Shown here: piece after piece, positions 4,105 to 46,366 of the stretch
How positions within the stretch are numbered: the stretch's first letter is position 1
Layout of the letters: every line of letters begins with the position of its first letter
NCBI GenBank assembly: GCA_035561095.1
Contig: DATMYE010000042.1
Coordinates: forward strand, 79,994-143,993
Source: Clostridia bacterium
GTDB lineage: Bacteria > Bacillota > Clostridia > Christensenellales > CAG-138
DNA length: 64,000 bases
Direction of reading: 5' to 3'
The notes under the pieces: generated by a model
The model's database searches: none
The model's input: only the letters and a program-made list of their open reading frames with translations
Told to the model about the DNA's origin: nothing
Translations under genes and position numbers: made by a program

Positions 4105-5457
4105 TTACGCAAACCGGTTCACGATCTCCTTAAACACCCTGCCGCGCTGCTCGAAGTTATCGAACATATCCCAGCTCGCGCAGGCGGGCGATAGCAGCAC
4201 CGCGTCGCCGGGGGCAGCTAGCATGCGCGCGCAGGCGACGGTGTCCTCAAATGATCCTGTCGCGTGGCAGTAGCCAAGGTAGCCCGTGTCCCGCGCGGTG
4301 TCGAGAATCTTCTGCTTGGTCTCGCCGAGCACGACGATGGCCTTGAGCCGGCTTCCGCGGAAATTCTCGAACAGCTCGTGAAAATCGCTGTGCTTGTCGT
4401 AGCCGCCGAGGATCAGCACTGTCGGCCGCGTCATCGCCTGAATCGCCTTGATGGTCGAATCCGGGTTGGTGCCCTTGGAGTCGTTGATATAGCGCACGCC
4501 ATCAACCTCCCGCACAAACTCGATGCGGTGCTCCACGCCGGGGAATGTGCGCAGCGTCTCGCGCACAGCACTGGGCGTGATGCCCATGCCGAGCGCGAGC
4601 AGCGAACTCAGCATCGCGTTTTCGAGGTTGTGCCCGCCGGGGATCTTGATCTCGTCCGCGCGGATGAGGTCATATTCCCCGTTCTCGTCGCGGTAGACGA
4701 CCGTGTCCCCGCGCAGAAACAGCCCGCGCGGCACCTCGCCTTTGCGCGAAAAATAATACACGCGCGCGGGTGTGAGCCGCGCCATGTCGCGCACCACCGC
4801 GTCGTCGTAGTTCAGTACCGCGATATCCTCTGCGGTCTGGTGGTCGAAAATCTTGCACTTGGCGGCAATGTAGTTCTCCATCGTGCCGAAGTGGTCGAGG
4901 TGGTCTTCCGTGATGTTGCAGACGCCAGCCGCGCGCGCATGGAAGTGCACGTTGCCCTCCAGCTGGAGCCCCGCGGTCTCCGCGACGACAACGTCGCCCG
5001 CACGCGTTTCCAGCGCGTGCTCCGTGATCGGCACGCCGATGTTGCCGAGCACGAACGTGTGCCGCCCGCCGGTCTTGAAGATCTCTCCGGTCAGCGCGGT
5101 GCAGGTGGTCTTGCCGTTGGTGCCGGTGATGCAGACGAATTCCGCGTGGCTGTAGCGGTAGCCAAGCTCGATCTCGCTGATGACCTCAATGCCCCGCTCC
5201 TGCGCCGCGCGCACGAACGGAACCGTCATCGGGATGATCGGGCTGATGACGATGAGCGTTACACCCTCAAACAGCGTCTGCGGGTCTTCGCCCAGCCGCC
5301 AATCGACAGAAACGCCGCTGAGCGCTTCGCGGAGCCCCTCGATCTCTGTCTTTTTGTCGTTGATGATCACGTCCCAGCCGGTTGCGCTGAGCAGCTTTGC
5401 CGCGCCGACGCCGCTTTTTGCCATACCGACGATCAGCGCTTTGTTGCGTTGTTCCAT
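4105..5457 (-). CDS. murD: UDP-N-acetylmuramoylalanine--D-glutamate ligase
   Basis: ORF track 4105..5502, with the start set at MEQRNKALIVGMAKSGVGAAKLL. All Mur-ligase motifs are present: GTNGKTT, HNLENA, HRIEFV..INDSKGTN, GGYDK and SPACASWDMF. Confidence 0.93.
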   Translation of the reverse strand: MEQRNKALIVGMAKSGVGAAKLLSATGWDVIINDKKTEIEGLREALSGVSVDWRLGEDPQTLFEGVTLIVISPIIPMTVPFVRAAQERGIEVISEIELGYRYSHAEFVCITGTNGKTTCTALTGEIFKTGGRHTFVLGNIGVPITEHALETRAGDVVVAETAGLQLEGNVHFHARAAGVCNITEDHLDHFGTMENYIAAKCKIFDHQTAEDIAVLNYDDAVVRDMARLTPARVYYFSRKGEVPRGLFLRGDTVVYRDENGEYDLIRADEIKIPGGHNLENAMLSSLLALGMGITPSAVRETLRTFPGVEHRIEFVREVDGVRYINDSKGTNPDSTIKAIQAMTRPTVLILGGYDKHSDFHELFENFRGSRLKAIVVLGETKQKILDTARDTGYLGYCHATGSFEDTVACARMLAAPGDAVLLSPACASWDMFDNFEQRGRVFKEIVNRFA

Positions 5458-5536
5458 GAAATATTTGCCTCCGAAGTGTGTGTTCTTGCGCGGTCTGCGC
5501 AAGACGAAAATGGAGCGAATGATTGCATCCCTGCCT

Positions 5537-6571
5537 CTAGCGGAAAAACGGCAGCAGACAGAACGCGCAGATCACCGCGGTGAGAATCGTATACATCGTC
5601 GCAATCTGCGAGGGCGGATGCCCCAGCAGCTCATAATGCCGGTGAACAGGAACCGCGCGGAAGAGTTTCTTTCCTCCTTCGCGGGTTTTGGAAAACGCCT
5701 GCAGCACGATCGAGCCGATGCTTGCCAGCAGGCAAAAGCTCATCAGCGGCAGCAGAATGATCGAGCGGCTCAAAATCGCGAGCATCGCGACAGCGCCACC
5801 GAGCGAGAGTGTGCCGGTAGCGCCCGGCTGCACGCGCGCAGGAAACACATTGTAGCGCAGAAAACCGATGGTTGCCCCCGCGACAGCCGCGGCGAAGATT
5901 GCACTGCCCGCAAGGTTATCGCCCAAGAGCAGTTCGCCGTTCTGGTTTGCGACGCTTGCCATCGCGGCAAGGATGCCGATCTGCGCCAGCGTGTAGACAT
6001 GGCTCACGCCGGTCACAAGCCCGTCTACGCCGTCGCTGAGGCGCGCCGCGTTGACCTCCGCGACGATGACGATCATCACCAGCGGTACGTACCAGAAACC
6101 GATATCCCATTCTCCGCCGGAAAGCGGCAGATGCAGTTCGGAGCCGATTAACGGCGAGCGGTATGCCCAGATTGCAACGATGGCAGCGATGACGATCTCA
6201 ACGCCGAGCATGATCTCCGGGCGGAGACCGATGCCGTCGGGATCGCGCACGCGGATAAAATCGTCCACAAACCCAAGTACGCCGAAGGCGAGCACCGCCA
6301 CCAGCGCGGGCAGCGTGAACTCCATTCCGTCGAGGCCGAAGATCAGCGTCGGGATCGCAACCGCAAGTAGCACCATCACGCCTCCCATAGTCGGCGTGGG
6401 CGGTTTCGGCGGCGGCTCTTTCTTTTTCCGGCTCTTCTCCGGCGGCGGTTCGGGCGCGGGTTCCTGCTCCGTATGTTCGGGCTTGAGGCGCGCGAGCATC
6501 GGAATCACGAGCGGGCCCAGAATCCAGACGATTGCCAGCGAGACGAGCGCGGTTATCATGATTTGCAGCAT
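5537..6571 (-). CDS. mraY: Phospho-N-acetylmuramoyl-pentapeptide transferase homologue with atypical catalytic motifs
   Basis: Clear MraY topology and motifs: TPTMGG, GFVDDF and NAARLSDGVDGL. The consensus FMGDxGS reads QPGATGT, HHH reads HRH, and cytoplasmic loop 1 is Pro/Glu/Lys-rich. See findings. Confidence 0.85.
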   Translation of the reverse strand: MLQIMITALVSLAIVWILGPLVIPMLARLKPEHTEQEPAPEPPPEKSRKKKEPPPKPPTPTMGGVMVLLAVAIPTLIFGLDGMEFTLPALVAVLAFGVLGFVDDFIRVRDPDGIGLRPEIMLGVEIVIAAIVAIWAYRSPLIGSELHLPLSGGEWDIGFWYVPLVMIVIVAEVNAARLSDGVDGLVTGVSHVYTLAQIGILAAMASVANQNGELLLGDNLAGSAIFAAAVAGATIGFLRYNVFPARVQPGATGTLSLGGAVAMLAILSRSIILLPLMSFCLLASIGSIVLQAFSKTREGGKKLFRAVPVHRHYELLGHPPSQIATMYTILTAVICAFCLLPFFR

Positions 6572-6632
6572 ATCGGTATTATACCCCTCTCAATGTTCAC
6601 CGGACAATCCCCAAAAACCAAGAGGTGGGGTG

Positions 6633-6880
6633 TTTGCCGCCTGCGGCGGCATGCAAAAACGAAAGATATTTTTTCGGAGTGCGGGCGGATGATATCCGCC
6701 CCTACAAAGAAAGATGCGGTTGGAAAATTCTTTCCTTCGAAAACCATAAACGCGAAGCCTTTTGCCCGTGAACGCGAATATCCTTGTAGGGGCGGATATC
6801 ATCCGCCCGTGCCACAAATGCACCCGAAAACGCCGTTCCGCGTGATTTGCGGACTTTGCCGCCTGCGGCGGCATGCAAAA
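6633..6880. repeat. Nested palindromic (REP-like) repeat units in the murE-mraY spacer
   Basis: Unit A, TTTGCCGCCTGCGGCGGCATGCAAAA, occurs identically at 6633-6658 and 6855-6880 in direct orientation. Its core GCCGCC-TGC-GGCGGC is a hairpin. Unit B, GGGCGGATGATATCCGCCCCTACA (6683-6706), recurs as its exact reverse complement at 6785-6808, and each copy is itself a hairpin. Confidence 0.9.
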
Positions 6881-6930: not shown

Positions 6931-8364
6931 TTACAGCTCGGAGAGCAATTCTTCGACAATCTCTTTGTCATCGAAGTGATACTTCGTGCCGTTGATCTCC
7001 TGATAGTTCTCGTGGCCTTTGCCGGCGATCATGATCACGTCGTCGGTCTGCGCGGAAGAGAGCGCATAGCGGATCGCTTCCTTGCGGTTTTCGATGACGG
7101 TGTACTTTGTTCCGCTGCGCTTGACGCCTTCCTCGATGGACTCGATGATCGACATCGGGTCTTCCGTGCGCGGGTTGTCGCTCGTGATGACCGCAAACTC
7201 GGAGAACCTTCCCGCGATTTCGCCCATGATCGGGCGCTTCGCGCGGTCGCGGTCGCCGCCGCAGCCAAAGACGCAGATGACGCGGCCCTTGGTGAACTGC
7301 TGCACGGTCTTGAGGACATTTTCCAACGCGTCGGGCGTATGCGCATAGTCGACAAACACGGAGAATCCGCGGTTTGTTCTAACCGGCTCGAGTCGTCCGG
7401 AGACGCTCGTGAGCGATTCCAGCCCCGCCTTGACGGCGCTGAGCTTCATGCCGACCGCAAGCGCCATCCCGGCTGCGCCCATCGCGTTGAACACCGAGAA
7501 CAGGCCGGGAATCGCGAGATTCATCAGCACTTCACCCTCCGGCGTATGCAGGTCAAAGCGCACGCCGTCGGTCGTGATGTCGATATCCGTCGCGGAGATG
7601 TCCGCGCGGTCGCGCACGCCGAAGGTCAGAATCGGGATCGTGAGTCCTTCCATGATGCGCGAGGAATAGGGATCGTCCACGTTGACGACCGCTTTTTTGC
7701 TGTTGAGGAACAGCGTCTTCTTCGCGGCAAGGTAGTTATCAAAGGACTTGTGATAGTCCAGATGATCCTGCGTGAGGTTCGTAAAGAGGCCGACATCGAA
7801 CTTGATGCCGTGCACACGATATTGCTCCAGCGCATGGGAGCTGGTCTCCATGACCACGAGATCGACATGCGCATCCGCCATCATGCGGAGGATACGGAAA
7901 AGATCGACCGATTCCGGCGTGGTGCGGTCGGTGTGGATGCTCTCGTTGCCGATGAGGTTGCGGATGGTGCCGATGACGCCAACCTTCTTGCCGGTCTGTT
8001 CGGCAATCGCCTTGACCATGTAGGTCGTGGTGGTCTTGCCGTTGGTACCGGTGACGCCGAGCATCATCATCTCGCGCTGGGGATAGCCGAAGAACGCGGC
8101 GGATATCTCCGCCATGGCCTTGCGCGCGTTTTTCACGACGAGCTGCGGCACCGCAAACGGAAGCTCTTTTTCCACCAGCAGCGCCGTTGCGCCGTTTGCA
8201 ATCGCGGCCTCTGCGAACGTGTGTCCGTCAAACAGGCTGCCGACGATGCAGCAGAAGAGGCTGCCTTTCTTCACTTTTCTGGAGTCATACTCGATGGAGA
8301 CGATGTCCGTGTCTTCGCCTTCATAGCGCAGGCCGGTTGCCATTGCCAGTTCCGAAAGCAGCAT
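6931..8364 (-). CDS. murE: UDP-N-acetylmuramoyl-L-alanyl-D-glutamate--2,6-diaminopimelate ligase
   Basis: ORF track 6931..8421, with the start set at MLLSELAMATGL, preceded by GGAGGT. Motifs present: GTNGKTTTT, ETSSHAL, TNLTQDHLDYH and DYAHTPDAL. The DNPR motif (ITSDNPRTEDP) is typical of meso-DAP-adding enzymes. Confidence 0.93.
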   Translation of the reverse strand: MLLSELAMATGLRYEGEDTDIVSIEYDSRKVKKGSLFCCIVGSLFDGHTFAEAAIANGATALLVEKELPFAVPQLVVKNARKAMAEISAAFFGYPQREMMMLGVTGTNGKTTTTYMVKAIAEQTGKKVGVIGTIRNLIGNESIHTDRTTPESVDLFRILRMMADAHVDLVVMETSSHALEQYRVHGIKFDVGLFTNLTQDHLDYHKSFDNYLAAKKTLFLNSKKAVVNVDDPYSSRIMEGLTIPILTFGVRDRADISATDIDITTDGVRFDLHTPEGEVLMNLAIPGLFSVFNAMGAAGMALAVGMKLSAVKAGLESLTSVSGRLEPVRTNRGFSVFVDYAHTPDALENVLKTVQQFTKGRVICVFGCGGDRDRAKRPIMGEIAGRFSEFAVITSDNPRTEDPMSIIESIEEGVKRSGTKYTVIENRKEAIRYALSSAQTDDVIMIAGKGHENYQEINGTKYHFDDKEIVEELLSEL

Positions 8365-8468
8365 GTCGTAACCTCCCGTCGCGCGGTTCTTCGCGCTCAA
8401 TAAAATGAAACAGTATTTCACCGCATTCCGGAAATCCGGGATGCGCTAGGAATGTTTGCCTGAAAGCC

Positions 8469-10679
8469 TTATCCCTCCGGCAGCGGCGTCGGCGGAGCCG
8501 GCGTGGCGTTCGGGTCGGGCGTGATCGAAGGCGAAGGCGAGGGCTTCGGGAACGTGACGTAGACCACCGTACCCGGGTCGACAAACGTGCCTTCCGCGAT
8601 CGACTGCGTGTCGATGACGCCGGTGCACTGCGTCTTATCAAAGCTCAGCACGAGGCCAATCGCCGCAAGCTTATCAAACGCATCCTGTCTGCGCCTGCCG
8701 ACGAGATTCGGCACCTGCACCTGCCCTTTGTAGAGTTCGTCGTCATTGTACGTGGTCACGCCCGTATACAGGATGATGGTCGAACCGGCTGGTACTTTTG
8801 TGTTGCCCGCAGGGAACTGATACGAAACGACCGCTGCATCCTCAGACTTGACCGTATATGCCATGAAGCCCGACTGTTGCAGCGTGTAGACCGCGTCCCG
8901 CGCCGTCATGTTGGTGACGTCCGGCACAGTGGCCATCTTGGTTTCCTGCGCGTTCGGCAAAATGCCGTAATACTGCACCAGATCCGAGAAGATCTTGCCG
9001 ACCCAGTAGCCCGCAATGCTCTTTGCTTCCATATAGGGTACCGCAGGCTCGTCGATGACCAGCATGCAGACGAGCTGCGGGCTGTCGTTGGCCGAAAGAT
9101 AGCCGATATACGAGGCGACGACGCGCATGCGCGAAGGCGTCACGCCGTCCTCTTCAAACTTGCGGGAAACGCCGCTGATTCCGCCGACCGTGTAGTTGGG
9201 CACCTGCGCGTTGTTGCCGAGGCCCTTGGTCGCGACGGTTTCCAGAAGCGAGCGCATCGTTGCAGAAGCGCTGGTGCTGATCACGCGGCGCAGAATGGTC
9301 GGCTCGTTTTTGACGATGACCGTTCCGTCCGTCGAGGTGATGTTGTCCACCACGTACGGCTGCATCAGCGTGCCGCCGTTGATGACCGCGCAGAAGGCAT
9401 TCGCCATCTGCATCGAGGTATTGGTAATGTTTTCGCCAAACGCGATGCGCGAAAGATCGCTCTCGCGGATGTACTTGCGATGGACGACCTCTCCGGTGTC
9501 TTCGCTCGGAATGCCGACATTGGTCTCCACGCCGAAGCCGAAGTTATAGATGTAGTCGTAAAACTTGTTGATCCCCGTCGCGAGCGCGATATCCGCCATC
9601 GAGAGATTGCAGGAGTTGCTGAGCGCTTCGGAAAGCGTCTGCAATTTGTGCCCCGCGGTGTCCCAGCAGGCGACCTTCTCCAGGCGGAAGATCTTGAAGC
9701 CTTCGCAGTCATATTGGGTGGAAAGCGTCGCAACGCCCGCATCGACGCCGGCTGCCGCCGTGATCACGTCAAACATAGAGCCGCTCTCGTAGGTATCGGT
9801 CACCATACGCATGCGGGACATGGACATGAGCTCGGTGACCATATCGCGCGGAGGCGCGTTGAGGTCAAACGAGGGATACGAGGAGATGGCCAGCACCTCG
9901 CCCGTGTTCGGATCCATGATGAGGCCCGAAACGGTGGCGGCGCGGTTGAGCTCATAGCACTGCTTGAGGTATTTCTCCAGATAGCTCTGCGTGACGGAGT
10001 CCGCCGTGAGCTTCATGTTGTAGCCTTCCACCGGCGCGAGATAATCCTCCTCGCCGTAGGAAAGCGGGTTGTTCTTTCGGTCTACCTCGATGACAAGCCG
10101 TCCCGCGGTGCCCGCGAGATAGGAGTTGTACTCCGCTTCCAATCCCGTCTGGCCTTCGGTTTCGATGCCGGTGAAGCCGACGAGCTGGGTAAAGAGGTTG
10201 CCAAAGGGATAGTAGCGCTTCATGTCCGTGGTATAGGAAATACCGTTGCCCAGCTGCAGCGCCTCCAGCTGGTCGATGACGGAGCTCTCCACCTGCCGCT
10301 TGAGCTGCACCTGCAGACGTTTCGGGTCGGAGATGCGCTCCAGCACGTAATCGTAGTTGAGGCCGAGCACTTCGGAGACCTCGGTGGCGACGCGGACGCG
10401 GTCGTCCGCCGCGATGGCGGGCGGGTTTGCGAGCACGCGGTAGGCGGTGCCGCTCTGCGCGAGTACGAGGCCGTTGCGGTCGGTGATCTTGCCGCGCTGG
10501 GCTGCGAGGTTCTGGCGGCGCGTCCACTGCACTTCCGCCTTGGCTTTGAGTTCAGGTCCCTGAACGATCATAACCTGCGTCAGGCGCAGTGCCAGCAGAA
10601 GCATGAGTAAGCCTGCAAATACCATCAGCAGGACAAGTTTGCGTTTAATCTTCGGCGCGGGGGCCGCTGTTTTAGCCAT
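8469..10679 (-). CDS. Class B penicillin-binding protein (FtsI/SpoVD/PBP2B family) with two PASTA domains and a Pro-rich tail; catalytic motifs degenerate
   Basis: The protein has an N-terminal TM anchor, a PBP dimerisation domain and a transpeptidase domain that aligns with SpoVD. PASTA repeats are TVPDVTNMTARDAVYTL... and VQVPNLVGRRRQDAFDKL.... Motif 1 reads SMFD and motif 3 reads ISG. See findings. Confidence 0.9.
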   Translation of the reverse strand: MAKTAAPAPKIKRKLVLLMVFAGLLMLLLALRLTQVMIVQGPELKAKAEVQWTRRQNLAAQRGKITDRNGLVLAQSGTAYRVLANPPAIAADDRVRVATEVSEVLGLNYDYVLERISDPKRLQVQLKRQVESSVIDQLEALQLGNGISYTTDMKRYYPFGNLFTQLVGFTGIETEGQTGLEAEYNSYLAGTAGRLVIEVDRKNNPLSYGEEDYLAPVEGYNMKLTADSVTQSYLEKYLKQCYELNRAATVSGLIMDPNTGEVLAISSYPSFDLNAPPRDMVTELMSMSRMRMVTDTYESGSMFDVITAAAGVDAGVATLSTQYDCEGFKIFRLEKVACWDTAGHKLQTLSEALSNSCNLSMADIALATGINKFYDYIYNFGFGVETNVGIPSEDTGEVVHRKYIRESDLSRIAFGENITNTSMQMANAFCAVINGGTLMQPYVVDNITSTDGTVIVKNEPTILRRVISTSASATMRSLLETVATKGLGNNAQVPNYTVGGISGVSRKFEEDGVTPSRMRVVASYIGYLSANDSPQLVCMLVIDEPAVPYMEAKSIAGYWVGKIFSDLVQYYGILPNAQETKMATVPDVTNMTARDAVYTLQQSGFMAYTVKSEDAAVVSYQFPAGNTKVPAGSTIILYTGVTTYNDDELYKGQVQVPNLVGRRRQDAFDKLAAIGLVLSFDKTQCTGVIDTQSIAEGTFVDPGTVVYVTFPKPSPSPSITPDPNATPAPPTPLPEG

Positions 10680-39215: not shown

Positions 39216-40286
39216 ATGGAGAGCAATTCCGTTCCGGAAAAACAACCGGTTCAGCCGATGCGCATATCCGACACGTTTGCCATCAAACAGGGTCTGATGG
39301 GCTTTGCCGCGCTGTGGATCTATATCTACCACGTCTGGCAGCCGATGTTCGGCGCGGTTCCTGTGCTCGGGCGGCTGGAAGCGATCGTCAAATACGTCGG
39401 CTTTTCCGGCGTGGATCTCTTCTTCTTCCTCTCCGGCGGCGGGCTGGTGTTTTCGATTCAAAAGGGCACAATCTGGCGCTTCTATCAGCGGAGGCTCGAG
39501 CGCATCCTGATTCCGTATCTGATCCTCGGCGTCTGCTTCGCGCTTGCGTATCAGTGGAGCTTCCCGCTGTTTCTCGCGCGTATCTCCGGCGTCTATTTCT
39601 ACACGAAGTCGATGTATGGCTTCTTGTGGTATATCCCCGCGATCCTGACATTCTACCTCTTCTTCCCTGCCTACTACGCGCTCTTCTCGCGCAGCAAAAA
39701 CCGCACGCTGTTCACCGCAATCGTGCTCGCGGTTTGGCTTGCGCTTTCGATTCTGCTCAAAAACACCCTGCGTGAAGACCTCTATGGCTTCACCAACCGC
39801 ATCCCGATCTTCCTCATCGGCGTTTATTGCGGGCAGAAAACGAAGGATGGAAACGATACACTTCCGCGCTGGTTCGCGCTCGTTTCCGCGGGGCTGCTGC
39901 TCGGCGGTATCGCGCTGAGTTACCTGACCAACGTGAGAAAGGTCGAGCTCCTCTTCCCCGTTTCCAACGCGGCGTTTCCGAATATCCTGCTCACGCTCGG
40001 CATCGCATTTCTCGTGCCGTGGATTGGCAAGCGGGTCATCCGGCGTCCGCTGCCGCTGTTATCGCGCTTCTTCGGGTTCTTCGGCATGATCAGCCTGACG
40101 TTCTATTGCACGCAGGAGCTGCTCTTAAACCTCTATGGCCGTGTGGTCGGGCTTCATCATCCGCTGCTCGATAATCTTGGGCTGTTCGCGCTCGTCACTT
40201 GCGCGAGCTATCTGCTGTATCGTCTGGTCGAGTGGCTACTGCGTCTGCTCAAAGGCAAGCCCGCGCAGCCGAAAACCGAATCCTGA
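39216..40286 (+). CDS. Acyltransferase family 3 (membrane O-acyltransferase)
   Basis: About 10 TMs. The N-terminal pattern GLMGFAALWIYIYHVW...GVDLFFFLSG is typical of Acyl_transf_3. Confidence 0.85.
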   Translation: MESNSVPEKQPVQPMRISDTFAIKQGLMGFAALWIYIYHVWQPMFGAVPVLGRLEAIVKYVGFSGVDLFFFLSGGGLVFSIQKGTIWRFYQRRLERILIPYLILGVCFALAYQWSFPLFLARISGVYFYTKSMYGFLWYIPAILTFYLFFPAYYALFSRSKNRTLFTAIVLAVWLALSILLKNTLREDLYGFTNRIPIFLIGVYCGQKTKDGNDTLPRWFALVSAGLLLGGIALSYLTNVRKVELLFPVSNAAFPNILLTLGIAFLVPWIGKRVIRRPLPLLSRFFGFFGMISLTFYCTQELLLNLYGRVVGLHHPLLDNLGLFALVTCASYLLYRLVEWLLRLLKGKPAQPKTES

Positions 40287-45082: not shown

Positions 45083-45205
45083 CCGTGTTGACGAATCCAA
45101 AGGAGGATGTATGGTTGCATCGCACCTATCGTTTTGCTACAATTCAGACAATTGATAGTTGTCGGTCAACCCATTCAAAATAAGCGGGAAGGACATCGAG
45201 CAACC

Positions 45206-46366
45206 ATGCAGAAGGAAGAATCTCTCGGGAGCGTGGAAATAAGCAAGGACATGCATTCCGGTATGCCGAGGCAATCCAATATCGAATTGCTTCGCATCTT
45301 TGCCATGTTTTTTATCGTCATGCACCATTATGTGATGCATGGCACGACCAGCTTTGTTTACCTCGATTCTCCGTTAACGCTGCAAAATGTGTTCGCTTTG
45401 TTCCTTGCGTCGCTGGGTCGGCCGGCCGTCGGGATTTTTGTTTTGATCTGCGGCTATTTCTCCATCAAAAGTGATTTCAAGTTGCCTCGCTTCGTTACCC
45501 TGATTGCGCAGGTGTTTTCATACAGTGTGGTGCTCCTGCTGTTGGCGAAATTCGTCTTGCCCGTTGGGGCTTCGATCGGGCGCGCTGAGATATTGTCATC
45601 GGTCTTCCCGACCGCATATGGCACCTACTGGTTCATGACTTCCTACGCCGTCCTGATTCTGCTTTCTCCATACATCAACAAGTTACTGTTGCTGCTGACG
45701 CAGAAACAGCACAAAGCCCTCATCTTGCTTTTTGTTGCGATCTGGTGCATTTCCCCCACCATATTGGGGGCCAACTTTGCCGGAAGCGATCTTGCGTATT
45801 TCGTTGCTTTCTATTCCATCGCAGCATATTTTCGTCTTTATCCATCAAAAGCAAATCCTTCGCGGTATTTTGCTCTGTTTGGATTTTGGGCACTCGTTGT
45901 TCTGGCTTCGATCGCGTCGGCGTCGTTTTTATTGAATTATTCAGGTGTTTTCCGAAAATATATCACATATTTCTCCGAGTACAACAGGCTTCCGGGCGCG
46001 ATGTGCGCAATCGAATTATTTCTGGCACTGTCGCAATCGAAACCGTTTTATTCAAAATGGATCAATGGAATCGCCTCAACCTCCTTTGGCATCTATCTGA
46101 TCCATGAAAACCCGTTTATCCGGCCGCTCCTTTGGGGAAAATTATTCGATAGCTCCGCTTATGTCAACACCCCGCTTTATTTTGTGCACCTTCTCGTCTC
46201 TGTCATCATCGTGTTTGCCGGTTGTGCGGTCATCGATACACTCTTCTGGAAACTATCCGTTGGCACGCTTTTCTGTATGCTGCGGGATAAGTATCTGGAC
46301 AAATTCGTCGCCTTCGTCAAATCTCTGTATTTTGCAATTGAGAAGTTCTTTGTGAAGTTGATTTAG
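45206..46366 (+). CDS. Acyltransferase family 3 (membrane O-acyltransferase)
   Basis: ORF track 45107..46366, with the start set at MQKEESLG. The N-terminal pattern NIELLRIFAMFFIVMHHYVMHG is typical of Acyl_transf_3, and the protein is multi-TM. The gene looks AT-richer than the flanks. Confidence 0.8.
   Translation: MQKEESLGSVEISKDMHSGMPRQSNIELLRIFAMFFIVMHHYVMHGTTSFVYLDSPLTLQNVFALFLASLGRPAVGIFVLICGYFSIKSDFKLPRFVTLIAQVFSYSVVLLLLAKFVLPVGASIGRAEILSSVFPTAYGTYWFMTSYAVLILLSPYINKLLLLLTQKQHKALILLFVAIWCISPTILGANFAGSDLAYFVAFYSIAAYFRLYPSKANPSRYFALFGFWALVVLASIASASFLLNYSGVFRKYITYFSEYNRLPGAMCAIELFLALSQSKPFYSKWINGIASTSFGIYLIHENPFIRPLLWGKLFDSSAYVNTPLYFVHLLVSVIIVFAGCAVIDTLFWKLSVGTLFCMLRDKYLDKFVAFVKSLYFAIEKFFVKLI

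What the first reader, a model, noticed from the sequence alone, without database searches (positions are those of the whole stretch)
5537..6571. MraY homologue lacks the third essential Asp (GDxGS reads GATGT), has HHH changed to HRH, and has a replaced cytoplasmic loop
Four deviations or partial deviations from consensus are visible.
- The consensus PAxVFMGDxGSLxLGG is here PARVQPGATGTLSLGG. The Ala codon gct lies at plus 5819-5821, and I translated the DNA by hand to confirm. The Asp in this motif (E. coli D267) is one of three aspartates shown by mutagenesis to be essential in MraY, and it is conserved across the PNPT superfamily.
- The PxHHHxE motif reads VPVHRHYE (about 5630-5647).
- The highly conserved loop FGQxIRxxGPxSHxxKxGTPTMGG is replaced by KPEHTEQEPAPEPPPEKSRKKKEPPPKPPTPTMGG (about 6398-6484).
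- The DD pair (GFVDDF) and DGxDGL are retained.

Together with the degenerate bPBP, both membrane-step enzymes of this cluster look catalytically compromised. The cytoplasmic ligases MurD and MurE keep every motif.
Basis: partly seen in the sequence, partly recalled or inferred. Interest (0 to 1): 0.62.

Follow-up and report, generated by a model that had tools for sequence, protein, structure and literature searches.

The report
MraY without its magnesium-binding aspartate
The gene in the normal mraY slot of this uncultured Christensenellaceae bacterium, and of about 20 related species, is intact, transcribed and under selection, but it lacks several residues that every studied MraY needs to make the cell-wall precursor lipid I, so either the enzyme works in a new way or these bacteria make lipid I by another route.

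Summary
ORF 5537-6571(-) encodes a 344-aa MraY-fold protein lying between murE and murD. GDxGS reads GATGT, so the Mg2+-binding Asp (D265 in Aquifex, D267 in E. coli) is Ala251. HHH reads HRH. The first cytoplasmic loop carries proline-rich inserts.

This is not a pseudogene or an error:
- 72 protein clusters and 21 GTDB species share the pattern.
- The gene sits in the same dcw slot as canonical mraY in sister genomes.
- omega is about 0.2.
- Metatranscriptome contigs cover it.

Constraint has shifted. MraY diverges 2.7 times as fast as MurD here, against 1.0 times in canonical relatives. The extra change lies in the cytoplasmic active-site loops.

D117, D118, D193, D196, H324, H326 and a K70 equivalent are kept, and Arg311 and Ala306 are newly fixed.

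A younger lineage made the same moves independently (D to G, M to A, then H to R). Other Clostridia lineages also lack this Asp.

I slightly favour a remodelled but working enzyme (0.40) over a non-catalytic relic (0.35).

The parts
5537..6571 (-). mraY orthologue, 344 aa, with a remodelled active site (P0001)
   Evidence: Pfam PF00953 scores 85 bits. TIGR00445 scores 192.1 against a cutoff of 192.05. PDB sequence hits to MraY reach 1.7e-43. The AlphaFold2 model has pTM 0.80, and Foldseek gives TM 0.80-0.85 to MraY structures.
5819..5821 (-). Ala251 codon (gct), at the position of the Mg2+-binding Asp (Aquifex D265, E. coli D267, B. subtilis D231)
   Evidence: Across the clade this position is S, A, N, Y or G. 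It is Ser in 19 of 21 species.
5636..5644 (-). H310-R311-H312, the HHH motif with the middle His (Aquifex H325) changed to Arg
   Evidence: R311 is invariant in 21 of 21 variant species and absent from all canonical relatives.
6041..6043 (-). Arg177, at the position of N190 (B. subtilis N171), within NAARLSDGVDGL
   Evidence: The position is variable in the clade: H, R, Q or Y in the 21 species, and also K, E, A and L in the wider set of clusters.
5828..5830 (-). Gln248, at the position of the uracil-stacking F262
   Evidence: The role of F262 is taken from PMC6606608.
6209..6211 (-). Met121, at the position of K133 (B. subtilis K116) in the GLxxxxK motif
   Evidence: (5JNQ alignment). The Lys is lost only in the inner subclade of 51 clusters that includes the window.
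6401..6484 (-). Proline-rich loop A, residues 30-57, with two inserts relative to canonical FGQxERELGPESHKKKQG
   Evidence: pLDDT is below 50 for residues 32-57. Entropy is 23 times that of canonical relatives.
6260..6265 (-). D103-D104, the retained DD pair (Aquifex D117 and D118)
   Evidence: Invariant in the variant clade.
6023..6034 (-). D180-G-V-D183, the retained DGxDG (Aquifex D193 and D196)
   Evidence: D183 is invariant. D180 is D or E in nearly all members.
4105..5502 (-). murD, directly downstream
   Evidence: Pfam MurD-like_N, Mur_ligase_M and Mur_ligase_C. It is 85-94% identical across variant species.
6931..8421 (-). murE, upstream, separated from mraY by a 359-bp spacer
   Evidence: Pfam hits. 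It is 89-96% identical across variant species, with omega 0.04-0.06.
8469..10679 (-). Class B PBP with PASTA domains. SxxK reads SMFD and KTG reads ISG.

Best explanation
**What it is (shown).** This is the true positional orthologue of dcw mraY. In one sublineage of uncultured Christensenellaceae it has lost the classical Mg2+ site (D265, N190) and the uracil-stacking Phe. In the window's own subclade it has also lost K133.

**How I think it works (inferred).**
- It most likely still binds undecaprenyl phosphate and UDP-MurNAc-peptide and still makes lipid I, using a rebuilt site that does not depend on the Asp.
- The retained core is D103/D104, D180/D183, H310/H312, Lys56/Thr61 and Gly250.
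- The newly fixed Arg311, Arg297 in most species, and the Gly/Ser-rich G-[SA]-[ST]-G-[ST] loop would hold the diphosphate that D265-bound Mg2+ normally holds.
- Glu125 is a newly fixed carboxylate one helical turn from the K133 position. It could be a relocated metal ligand.
- The enzyme is under clearly weaker constraint on its cytoplasmic loops than canonical MraY.

Catalysis itself is not shown.
For: **Orthology**
- The synteny gyrBA | mraZ-rsmH-ftsL-PBP-murE-mraY-murD is the same in variant and canonical genomes.
- The variant clade is nested inside canonical sequences with SH-aLRT 99.

**Selection and expression**
- omega is 0.14-0.27. It is 0.23 in the loops and 0.20 elsewhere.
- Metatranscriptome contigs of a relative about 92% identical cover the whole gene.

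**A site core is still conserved**
- D103, D104, D183, R311, H312, G250, P308, K49, P60, G63 and G64 are invariant across 39 sequences that are 53-83% identical to the window protein.

**Directional, repeatable change**
- The independent young lineage (P0079 cluster, locus L052) has D to G and M320 to A in all 13 members read.
- It has H325 to R in 11 of 13, and N190 to S or H in some members.
- Its genome is otherwise nearly identical to a canonical one: MurE is 98.7% identical against 90.4% for MraY.
- 15 of the 22 changes on its branch lie in cytoplasmic loops (p = 3e-7).
- Three of those 22 changes (V292A, M306A, H311R) reach the exact residues diagnostic of the main clade, against 2 of 96 in controls.

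**Basic residues recur at the former Mg site in other Asp-less lineages**
- D to R or K, N190 to R or H, F262 to R, H325 to R.
- One such gene is tightly packed (4-bp overlap with murE) in a complete dcw operon with intact PBP motifs.

**The pathway still needs a translocase**
- MurD and MurE stay strongly constrained.
- No close canonical paralogue from the complete variant chromosomes appears among hits down to 48% identity.
- There is one locus per genome in 44 species.
- No second MraY-like ORF occurs in 950 kb of fetched flanks.
Against: - D265 and its equivalents are essential in every MraY tested, and the position is conserved across the superfamily (PMC5039524, PMC6606608).
- Four of the eight catalytically important residues are changed.
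- Positions 251, 177 and 121 are variable within the clade, so no defined replacement residue sits at those positions.
- The cytoplasmic loops are the most conserved part of canonical relatives (entropy 0.18 against 0.44). Here they are the least conserved (0.90 against 0.71). Loop omega rises from 0.063 to 0.229.
- MraY diverges 2.7 times as fast as MurD, against 1.0 times in canonical relatives. That looks like loss of catalytic constraint.
- The TIGR00445 score decays stepwise along the series: 320, 284, 221, 192.
- The absence of a second lipid I synthase was not tested.
Confidence: 0.4

Rival explanations
1. Pseudo-MraY. The protein has lost translocase activity and is kept for a non-catalytic role, for example as a membrane scaffold of the division wall-synthesis machinery or as a binder of undecaprenyl phosphate. 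The catalytically dead bPBP next to it would be a parallel case. Lipid I would be made by another enzyme encoded elsewhere: a xenologous mraY, another PNPT, or something unknown.
For: - Essential residues were lost and then drift at those positions.
- The acceleration is sustained and gene-specific, and it is concentrated in the active-site loops.
- Erosion is progressive: K133 is lost only in the inner subclade, and the TIGR00445 score declines stepwise.
- Loop A became a low-confidence, proline-rich linker.
- Both origins seen inside this family fall in the group that already tolerates a dead dcw PBP.
Against: - No second mraY was seen among hits down to 48% identity from the complete genomes, nor in any fetched flank.
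- Canonical members of the same family show normal MraY constraint (ratio to MurD 1.1), so no pre-existing redundancy is apparent.
- DD, D196, H324 and H326 remain invariant, and R311 and A306 are newly fixed. A pure scaffold does not predict this.
- Identical substitutions recurred independently.
- Loop omega of 0.2 is far from neutral.
Confidence: 0.35
2. Changed reaction. The protein is still a polyprenyl-phosphate transferase but uses a different donor or has relaxed donor specificity, for example a shortened or modified stem peptide. That would explain the re-fixed TM9b/loop E specificity region.
For: - Loop E and TM9b show a shift followed by conservation: V292A, L297R, M306A, A307V, H311R, and loss of E320.
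- These residues border Q305, A321 and H325, which bind the peptide-like parts of inhibitors (PMC6606608).
- murF is not in the cluster, and the cluster PBP cannot use D-Ala-D-Ala donors.
Against: - murF is also absent from the cluster in canonical relatives, so its absence here says nothing.
- The changes hit the metal and uridine parts of the site, not only the peptide side.
- MurD and MurE are unchanged.
- No genome-wide check of murF or ddl was possible.
Confidence: 0.12
3. Pseudogene, or a sequencing or assembly artefact.
For: None beyond the missing motifs.
Against: - The ORF is intact in 72 clusters from many sources and in 21 species.
- omega is about 0.2.
- The fold prediction is confident.
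- RNA contigs cover the gene.
Confidence: 0.01

Closest known systems
Canonical bacterial MraY (phospho-MurNAc-pentapeptide translocase, EC 2.7.8.13; TIGR00445; structures 4J72, 5JNQ, 8G01)
   Same: - Same fold (TM-score 0.80-0.85) and same ten-helix layout.
- Same dcw position between murE and murD.
- Retains D117, D118, D193, D196, H324, H326, T75, G264 and a K70 equivalent.
   Different: - Lacks the Mg2+ ligand D265.
- Lacks N190, F262, H325 (now Arg) and K133.
- Loop A carries proline-rich inserts.
- The cytoplasmic loops evolve about 3.6 times faster.
- It scores exactly at the TIGR00445 cutoff.
Closest canonical orthologues in the same family (e.g. P0074; the genomes OY771363.1, OY764017.1 and OY762278.1)
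   Same: - 56-60% identical to the window protein.
- Same truncated cluster: mraY-murD, then isochorismatase, SpoU and the L20 genes.
- Same dead bPBP.
   Different: They keep KNFDH at the five diagnostic positions, keep the short FGQxERELGPESHKKKQG loop, and show normal loop constraint.
B. subtilis PBP2B, whose transpeptidase activity is dispensable while the protein itself is essential. This is cited in the earlier-scan note e1-4624467 as PMC5656894, which I did not read.
   Same: It is a conceptual precedent for the rival reading: a dcw-encoded wall enzyme kept for a structural role after losing catalysis.
   Different: It is a different protein family. In B. subtilis a second PBP supplies the activity, and no such backup is known for MraY.
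Other PNPT superfamily members (WecA, TagO, human DPAGT1/GPT)
   Same: Shared fold. DPAGT1 structures are the next-best Foldseek hits (TM about 0.68).
   Different: According to the literature read here, they also keep the Asp equivalent to D265. Its loss therefore puts this protein outside every characterised PNPT active site.

Membership tests
MraY (TIGR00445 / PNPT superfamily) | PF00953 Glycos_transf_4 domain | tested here: met
   85.4 bits against a cutoff of 27.
MraY (TIGR00445 / PNPT superfamily) | Score above the NCBIfam equivalog cutoff for mraY | tested here: inconclusive
   192.1 bits against a cutoff of 192.05, met by only 0.05 bit. The canonical relative P0074 scores 320.1.
MraY (TIGR00445 / PNPT superfamily) | MraY fold | tested here: met
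   The AlphaFold2 model has pTM 0.80. The top 24 Foldseek PDB hits are all MraY structures, with TM 0.67-0.89.
MraY (TIGR00445 / PNPT superfamily) | Position in the dcw cluster between murE/murF and murD | tested here: met
MraY (TIGR00445 / PNPT superfamily) | DDD motif: D117, D118 and the Mg2+-binding D265 | tested here: not met
   D103 and D104 are present. The D265 position is Ala251.
MraY (TIGR00445 / PNPT superfamily) | PxHHHxE motif in loop E | tested here: not met
   It reads PVHRHYE. H324 and H326 are kept, and H325 is Arg.
MraY (TIGR00445 / PNPT superfamily) | The other residues shown to matter in B. subtilis MraY: K116, N171 and D174 | tested here: not met
   K116 is Met121, N171 is Arg177, and D174 is kept as D180.
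MraY (TIGR00445 / PNPT superfamily) | Uridine pocket: K70, G194, L195, D196 and F262 | tested here: inconclusive
   Lys56, G181 and D183 are kept. L195 is Val182 and F262 is Gln248.
MraY (TIGR00445 / PNPT superfamily) | MraY signature 1 (PF10555) in loop A | tested here: not met
   P0001 gives no PF10555 hit. It is present in the canonical relative P0120 (25.3 bits).
MraY (TIGR00445 / PNPT superfamily) | Mg2+-dependent transfer of phospho-MurNAc-pentapeptide to C55-P | not testable with these tools
   This needs a biochemical assay or a complementation test.
Pseudoenzyme (non-catalytic homologue alongside an active paralogue) | An active paralogue or other source of the reaction in the same genome | not testable with these tools
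- Indirect checks found none nearby or closely related.

The most novel reading that the evidence does not exclude
The Asp-less protein is the only lipid I synthase of these bacteria. On this reading the PNPT fold can carry out phospho-MurNAc-peptide transfer without the conserved metal-binding Asp and Asn. An arginine from loop E and a Gly/Ser-rich loop would hold the diphosphate instead. Several Clostridia lineages would have reached this solution independently.
Probability: 0.35. Interest if true: 0.85.

Novelty: new variant of a known kind. Interest (0 to 1): 0.7.

Why it matters
MraY is essential, nearly universal and a major antibiotic target. D265, N190, F262 and H325 are exactly the residues contacted by the natural nucleoside inhibitors (PMC6606608).

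A lineage-wide MraY without these residues, still in place and under selection, leads to one of two conclusions:
- The accepted catalytic model is not the only way this fold can work. Such an enzyme would probably be insensitive to several inhibitor classes.
- Some Clostridia make lipid I with an enzyme that has not been recognised.

The young variant and its canonical sister are 90% identical in MraY and 98.7% identical in MurE. They form a natural near-isogenic pair that makes the question directly testable. I found no paper describing this.

Tried and rejected
The window's genome could not be searched for a second mraY.

**Substitutes that did not settle the second-copy question**
- I used contig length as a genome tag in the homologue list. 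No second hit came from the complete variant chromosomes, but only hits with at least 48% identity were listed.
- An FtsW query was meant to locate the relocated division genes in variant genomes. FtsW is so conserved that variant genomes did not reach the top 120.
- In a canonical genome with the truncated cluster, ftsW-ftsQ lie 240 kb away with no mraY beside them.
- An HMM scan of the window and of 950 kb of loci found one MraY per locus.
- Pfam annotation of the rest of the window found no murF, murG, ftsW or second PNPT.

**Other dead ends**
- My last homologue search used P0280, hoping for a cultured host. It belongs to uncultured Clostridia.
- Literature searches for MraY with Christensenellales, with Ruminococcus albus, or with pseudoenzyme found nothing relevant.
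- The structure model gives no coordinates, so I could not measure distances from R311, R177 or E125 to the metal site.

**Readings I rejected**
- Pseudogene or artefact.
- A duplication at the locus.
- A necessary link between the PBP and MraY defects.

Full report
**1. Observation**

The ORF at 5537-6571 on the minus strand is open for 344 codons. It matches Pfam PF00953 at 85 bits. It also matches solved MraY structures by sequence: 5JNQ at 1.7e-43 and 4J72 at 2.1e-39.

In those alignments:
- Ala251 (codon gct, 5821-5819) lies opposite the Asp of GDxGS.
- Arg311 lies opposite the middle His of HHH.
- D103/D104 (the DD pair) and D180/D183 (DGxDG) are kept.

- NAVNLTDGLDGL reads NAARLSDGVDGL, so N190 is Arg177.
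- VFMGD reads VQPGA, so F262 is Gln248.
- GLxxxxK reads GLRPEIM, so K133 is Met121.

Loop A is not wholly replaced. PE, KKK and PTMGG are inherited, two proline-rich inserts of 4 and 6 residues were added, and Lys56 sits where K70 does relative to T75.

The literature gives these residues defined roles:
- D265 coordinates Mg2+.
- K70, G194, L195, D196 and F262 form the uracil pocket.
- T75, N190, D193 and G264 form the adjacent pocket.
- H325 contacts most inhibitors (PMC6606608).
- D98, D99, K116, N171, D174, D231, H289 and H290 are catalytically important in B. subtilis MraY (PMC5039524).

Four of those eight residues are changed here.

**2. It is a lineage trait in the true mraY slot**

A search of 5.8 billion proteins found a graded series of relatives. 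All 72 full-length clusters with at least 61% identity share the Asp loss, HRH, the Gln (rarely Glu) at position 248 and the long loop. All 42 canonical relatives, at 58% identity or less, read KNFDH at the five diagnostic positions.

In a maximum-likelihood tree the variant clade is nested inside canonical sequences:
- It groups with an intermediate, P0098, which reads KSSSR and has a short loop.
- The grouping has SH-aLRT 99 and sits on a long stem (0.17 + 0.31).
- K133 is lost only in an inner subclade of 51 clusters that contains the window.

Synteny is conserved in complete variant chromosomes and in canonical relatives. The order is gyrB-gyrA | mraZ-rsmH-ftsL-bPBP-murE-mraY-murD.

A scan of GTDB species genomes returned 44 loci:
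- All are uncultured Christensenellaceae or Clostridiales MAGs.
- Together with loci fetched earlier, they give 21 variant and 24 canonical species.
- Each genome has one locus.

**3. Order of events**

Outer relatives have the longer cluster (murD-ftsW-murA-ftsQ) and a bPBP with SIFK, SCN and KTG.

A middle group has the truncated cluster and a bPBP that has lost SxxK and KTG, yet keeps a fully canonical MraY.

The variant clade arose inside that middle group. The PBP defect is therefore older than the MraY change and separable from it.

**4. Selection**

The variant is under purifying selection, with pairwise omega 0.14-0.27. Its constraint has nonetheless changed in a gene-specific way.

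| Measure | Variant | Canonical |
|---|---|---|
| MraY / MurD divergence | 2.67 (153 pairs) | 0.97 (210 pairs) |
| MraY / MurE divergence | 5.2 | 1.8 |
| Entropy, cytoplasmic loops | 0.90 | 0.18 |
| Entropy, rest of protein | 0.71 | 0.44 |
| omega, loops | 0.229 | 0.063 |
| omega, rest | 0.196 | 0.153 |

In canonical relatives the five cytoplasmic loops are the most conserved part. In the variant clade they are the least conserved. Loop A entropy is 23 times, and loop C 7.6 times, the canonical value.

Former key positions now vary:
- Position 251 is S or A, plus N, Y or G in the wider set of clusters.
- Position 177 is H, R, Q or Y, plus K, E, A or L in the wider set.
- Position 121 is M, L or V.

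Against that, a core stays invariant: D103, D104, D183, G250, P308 and H312.

Several new residues are fixed or nearly fixed:
- R311, 21 of 21
- A306, 21 of 21
- E125, 20 of 21
- R297, 18 of 21
- A292, 18 of 21
- Ser251, 19 of 21

**5. Independent repeats**

The P0079 cluster has 28 members from several sources, of which 13 were aligned here:
- All 13 have D265 changed to Gly and M320 changed to Ala.
- 11 of 13 have HRH and 2 keep HHH, so the Asp loss came first.
- N190 is N, S or H.

Its locus, L052, lies in the same dcw slot. Its genome is almost identical to the canonical species OY771363.1: MurE 98.7% and PBP 94% identical, against 90.4% for MraY.

On its branch there are 22 amino-acid changes against 4 on the sister branch. 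Fifteen of the 22 lie in cytoplasmic loops, where 18% would be expected (p = 3e-7). Three of them (V292A, M306A, H311R) reach the exact states diagnostic of the main clade, against 2 of 96 in control branches.

A profile search of 1.84 billion representatives found further Asp-less lineages:
- A clade of P0280, P0351 and P0376, with D to R or E, N190 to H or R, and F262 to R or T.
- P0318, with D to K and HRH.

P0280 sits in a tightly packed, complete dcw operon whose bPBP has intact STFK, SCN and KTG. Among about 130 representatives that keep the Asp, none has Arg at position 325.

**6. Structure, classification and expression**

- The AlphaFold2 model has mean pLDDT 78.8 and pTM 0.80. Confidence is low only in residues 32-57 and 284-307.
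- The best Foldseek hits are all MraY structures, with TM about 0.8.
- The TIGR00445 score is 192.1, exactly at the 192.05 cutoff. The series runs 320 for a canonical relative, 284 for the young variant, 221 for P0098 and 170 for P0280, which NCBI calls hypothetical.
- Biofilm metatranscriptome contigs from a relative about 92% identical cover mraY end to end in four runs. Depth from contigs is a poor measure of expression, and DNA carry-over cannot be excluded.
- The organism occurs in soil, sediment, rhizosphere, groundwater and sludge metagenomes.

**7. Interpretation**

*Shown:*
- The gene is the orthologous mraY.
- It is real, conserved and probably expressed.
- The classical Mg2+/uridine site is dismantled.
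- The special constraint on the catalytic loops is gone.
- The change is repeatable.

*Not shown:* whether the protein still makes lipid I.

The relaxation and the drift at former key positions favour loss of catalysis. Four things favour a working but rebuilt site:
- The invariant DD, D196, H324 and H326 core.
- The fixation of the same new residues in independent lineages.
- The recurrent appearance of basic residues at the former metal site.
- The strong constraint on MurD and MurE, together with no sign of a backup.

I put 0.40 on a remodelled active enzyme, 0.35 on a non-catalytic relic with lipid I made elsewhere, and 0.12 on a changed substrate.

**8. Limits**

The decisive whole-genome search for a second mraY or PNPT was therefore not possible.
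- Earlier-scan notes on similar genes in other genomes describe the same dilemma, and one speaks of an 'unfound gene'. These are e1-4845868, e1-2281994, e1-3018541 and e1-3923732. I treat them as leads only.
- No coordinates were available from the model, so the proposed roles of R311, R297, E125 and the Gly/Ser loop are inference.

Noticed in passing
window 8469-10679 (-), and loci L004-L006, L020-L035: The dcw class B PBP has lost SxxK (SMFD here; TMFD, DMFS or TAFD in relatives) and KTG (ISG or ITG). This holds in every genome with the truncated cluster, including 14 genome loci whose MraY is canonical. Outer relatives with the full cluster keep SIFK, SCN and KTG. The PBP defect therefore predates the MraY change.
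   Followed up: partly
L051 (OY764017.1, 2.69 Mb): In a canonical genome with the truncated dcw cluster, ftsW-ftsQ lie about 240 kb from mraZ-murD, among unrelated genes. No mraY, murG or murF is beside them.
   Followed up: partly
window 6553-6840 (murE-mraY spacer): Metatranscriptome contig depth is 5-20 times higher over the 359-bp spacer than over mraY in two of four runs. Contigs also show 77-78-bp and 241-bp skips there. That fits a multi-copy palindromic repeat element or a small RNA.
   Followed up: no
L018 11092-11670 (+): One variant genome has a 192-aa P-loop gene (MKIYTVIGGVNGAGKSSL...) inserted between mraY and murD. It looks like a zeta-toxin/AAA-type kinase. Another genome (L002) has a HEPN_AbiU2 gene directly after murD.
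   Followed up: no
window 39216-40286 (+) and 45107-46366 (+): There are two Acyl_transf_3 membrane acyltransferase genes 5 kb apart. They could modify the envelope. A lower-GC stretch (0.51-0.55) spans roughly 32-48 kb.
   Followed up: no
P0122-type FtsW compared with MraY across the family: In the canonical relatives, FtsW stays at 76% identity or more across its top 120 hits. Where both proteins can be compared on one genome (contig of 131,450 bp), FtsW is 81% identical to the L003 copy, while canonical MraYs in this family are 73-84% identical to one another. I have no FtsW from any variant genome.
   Followed up: no
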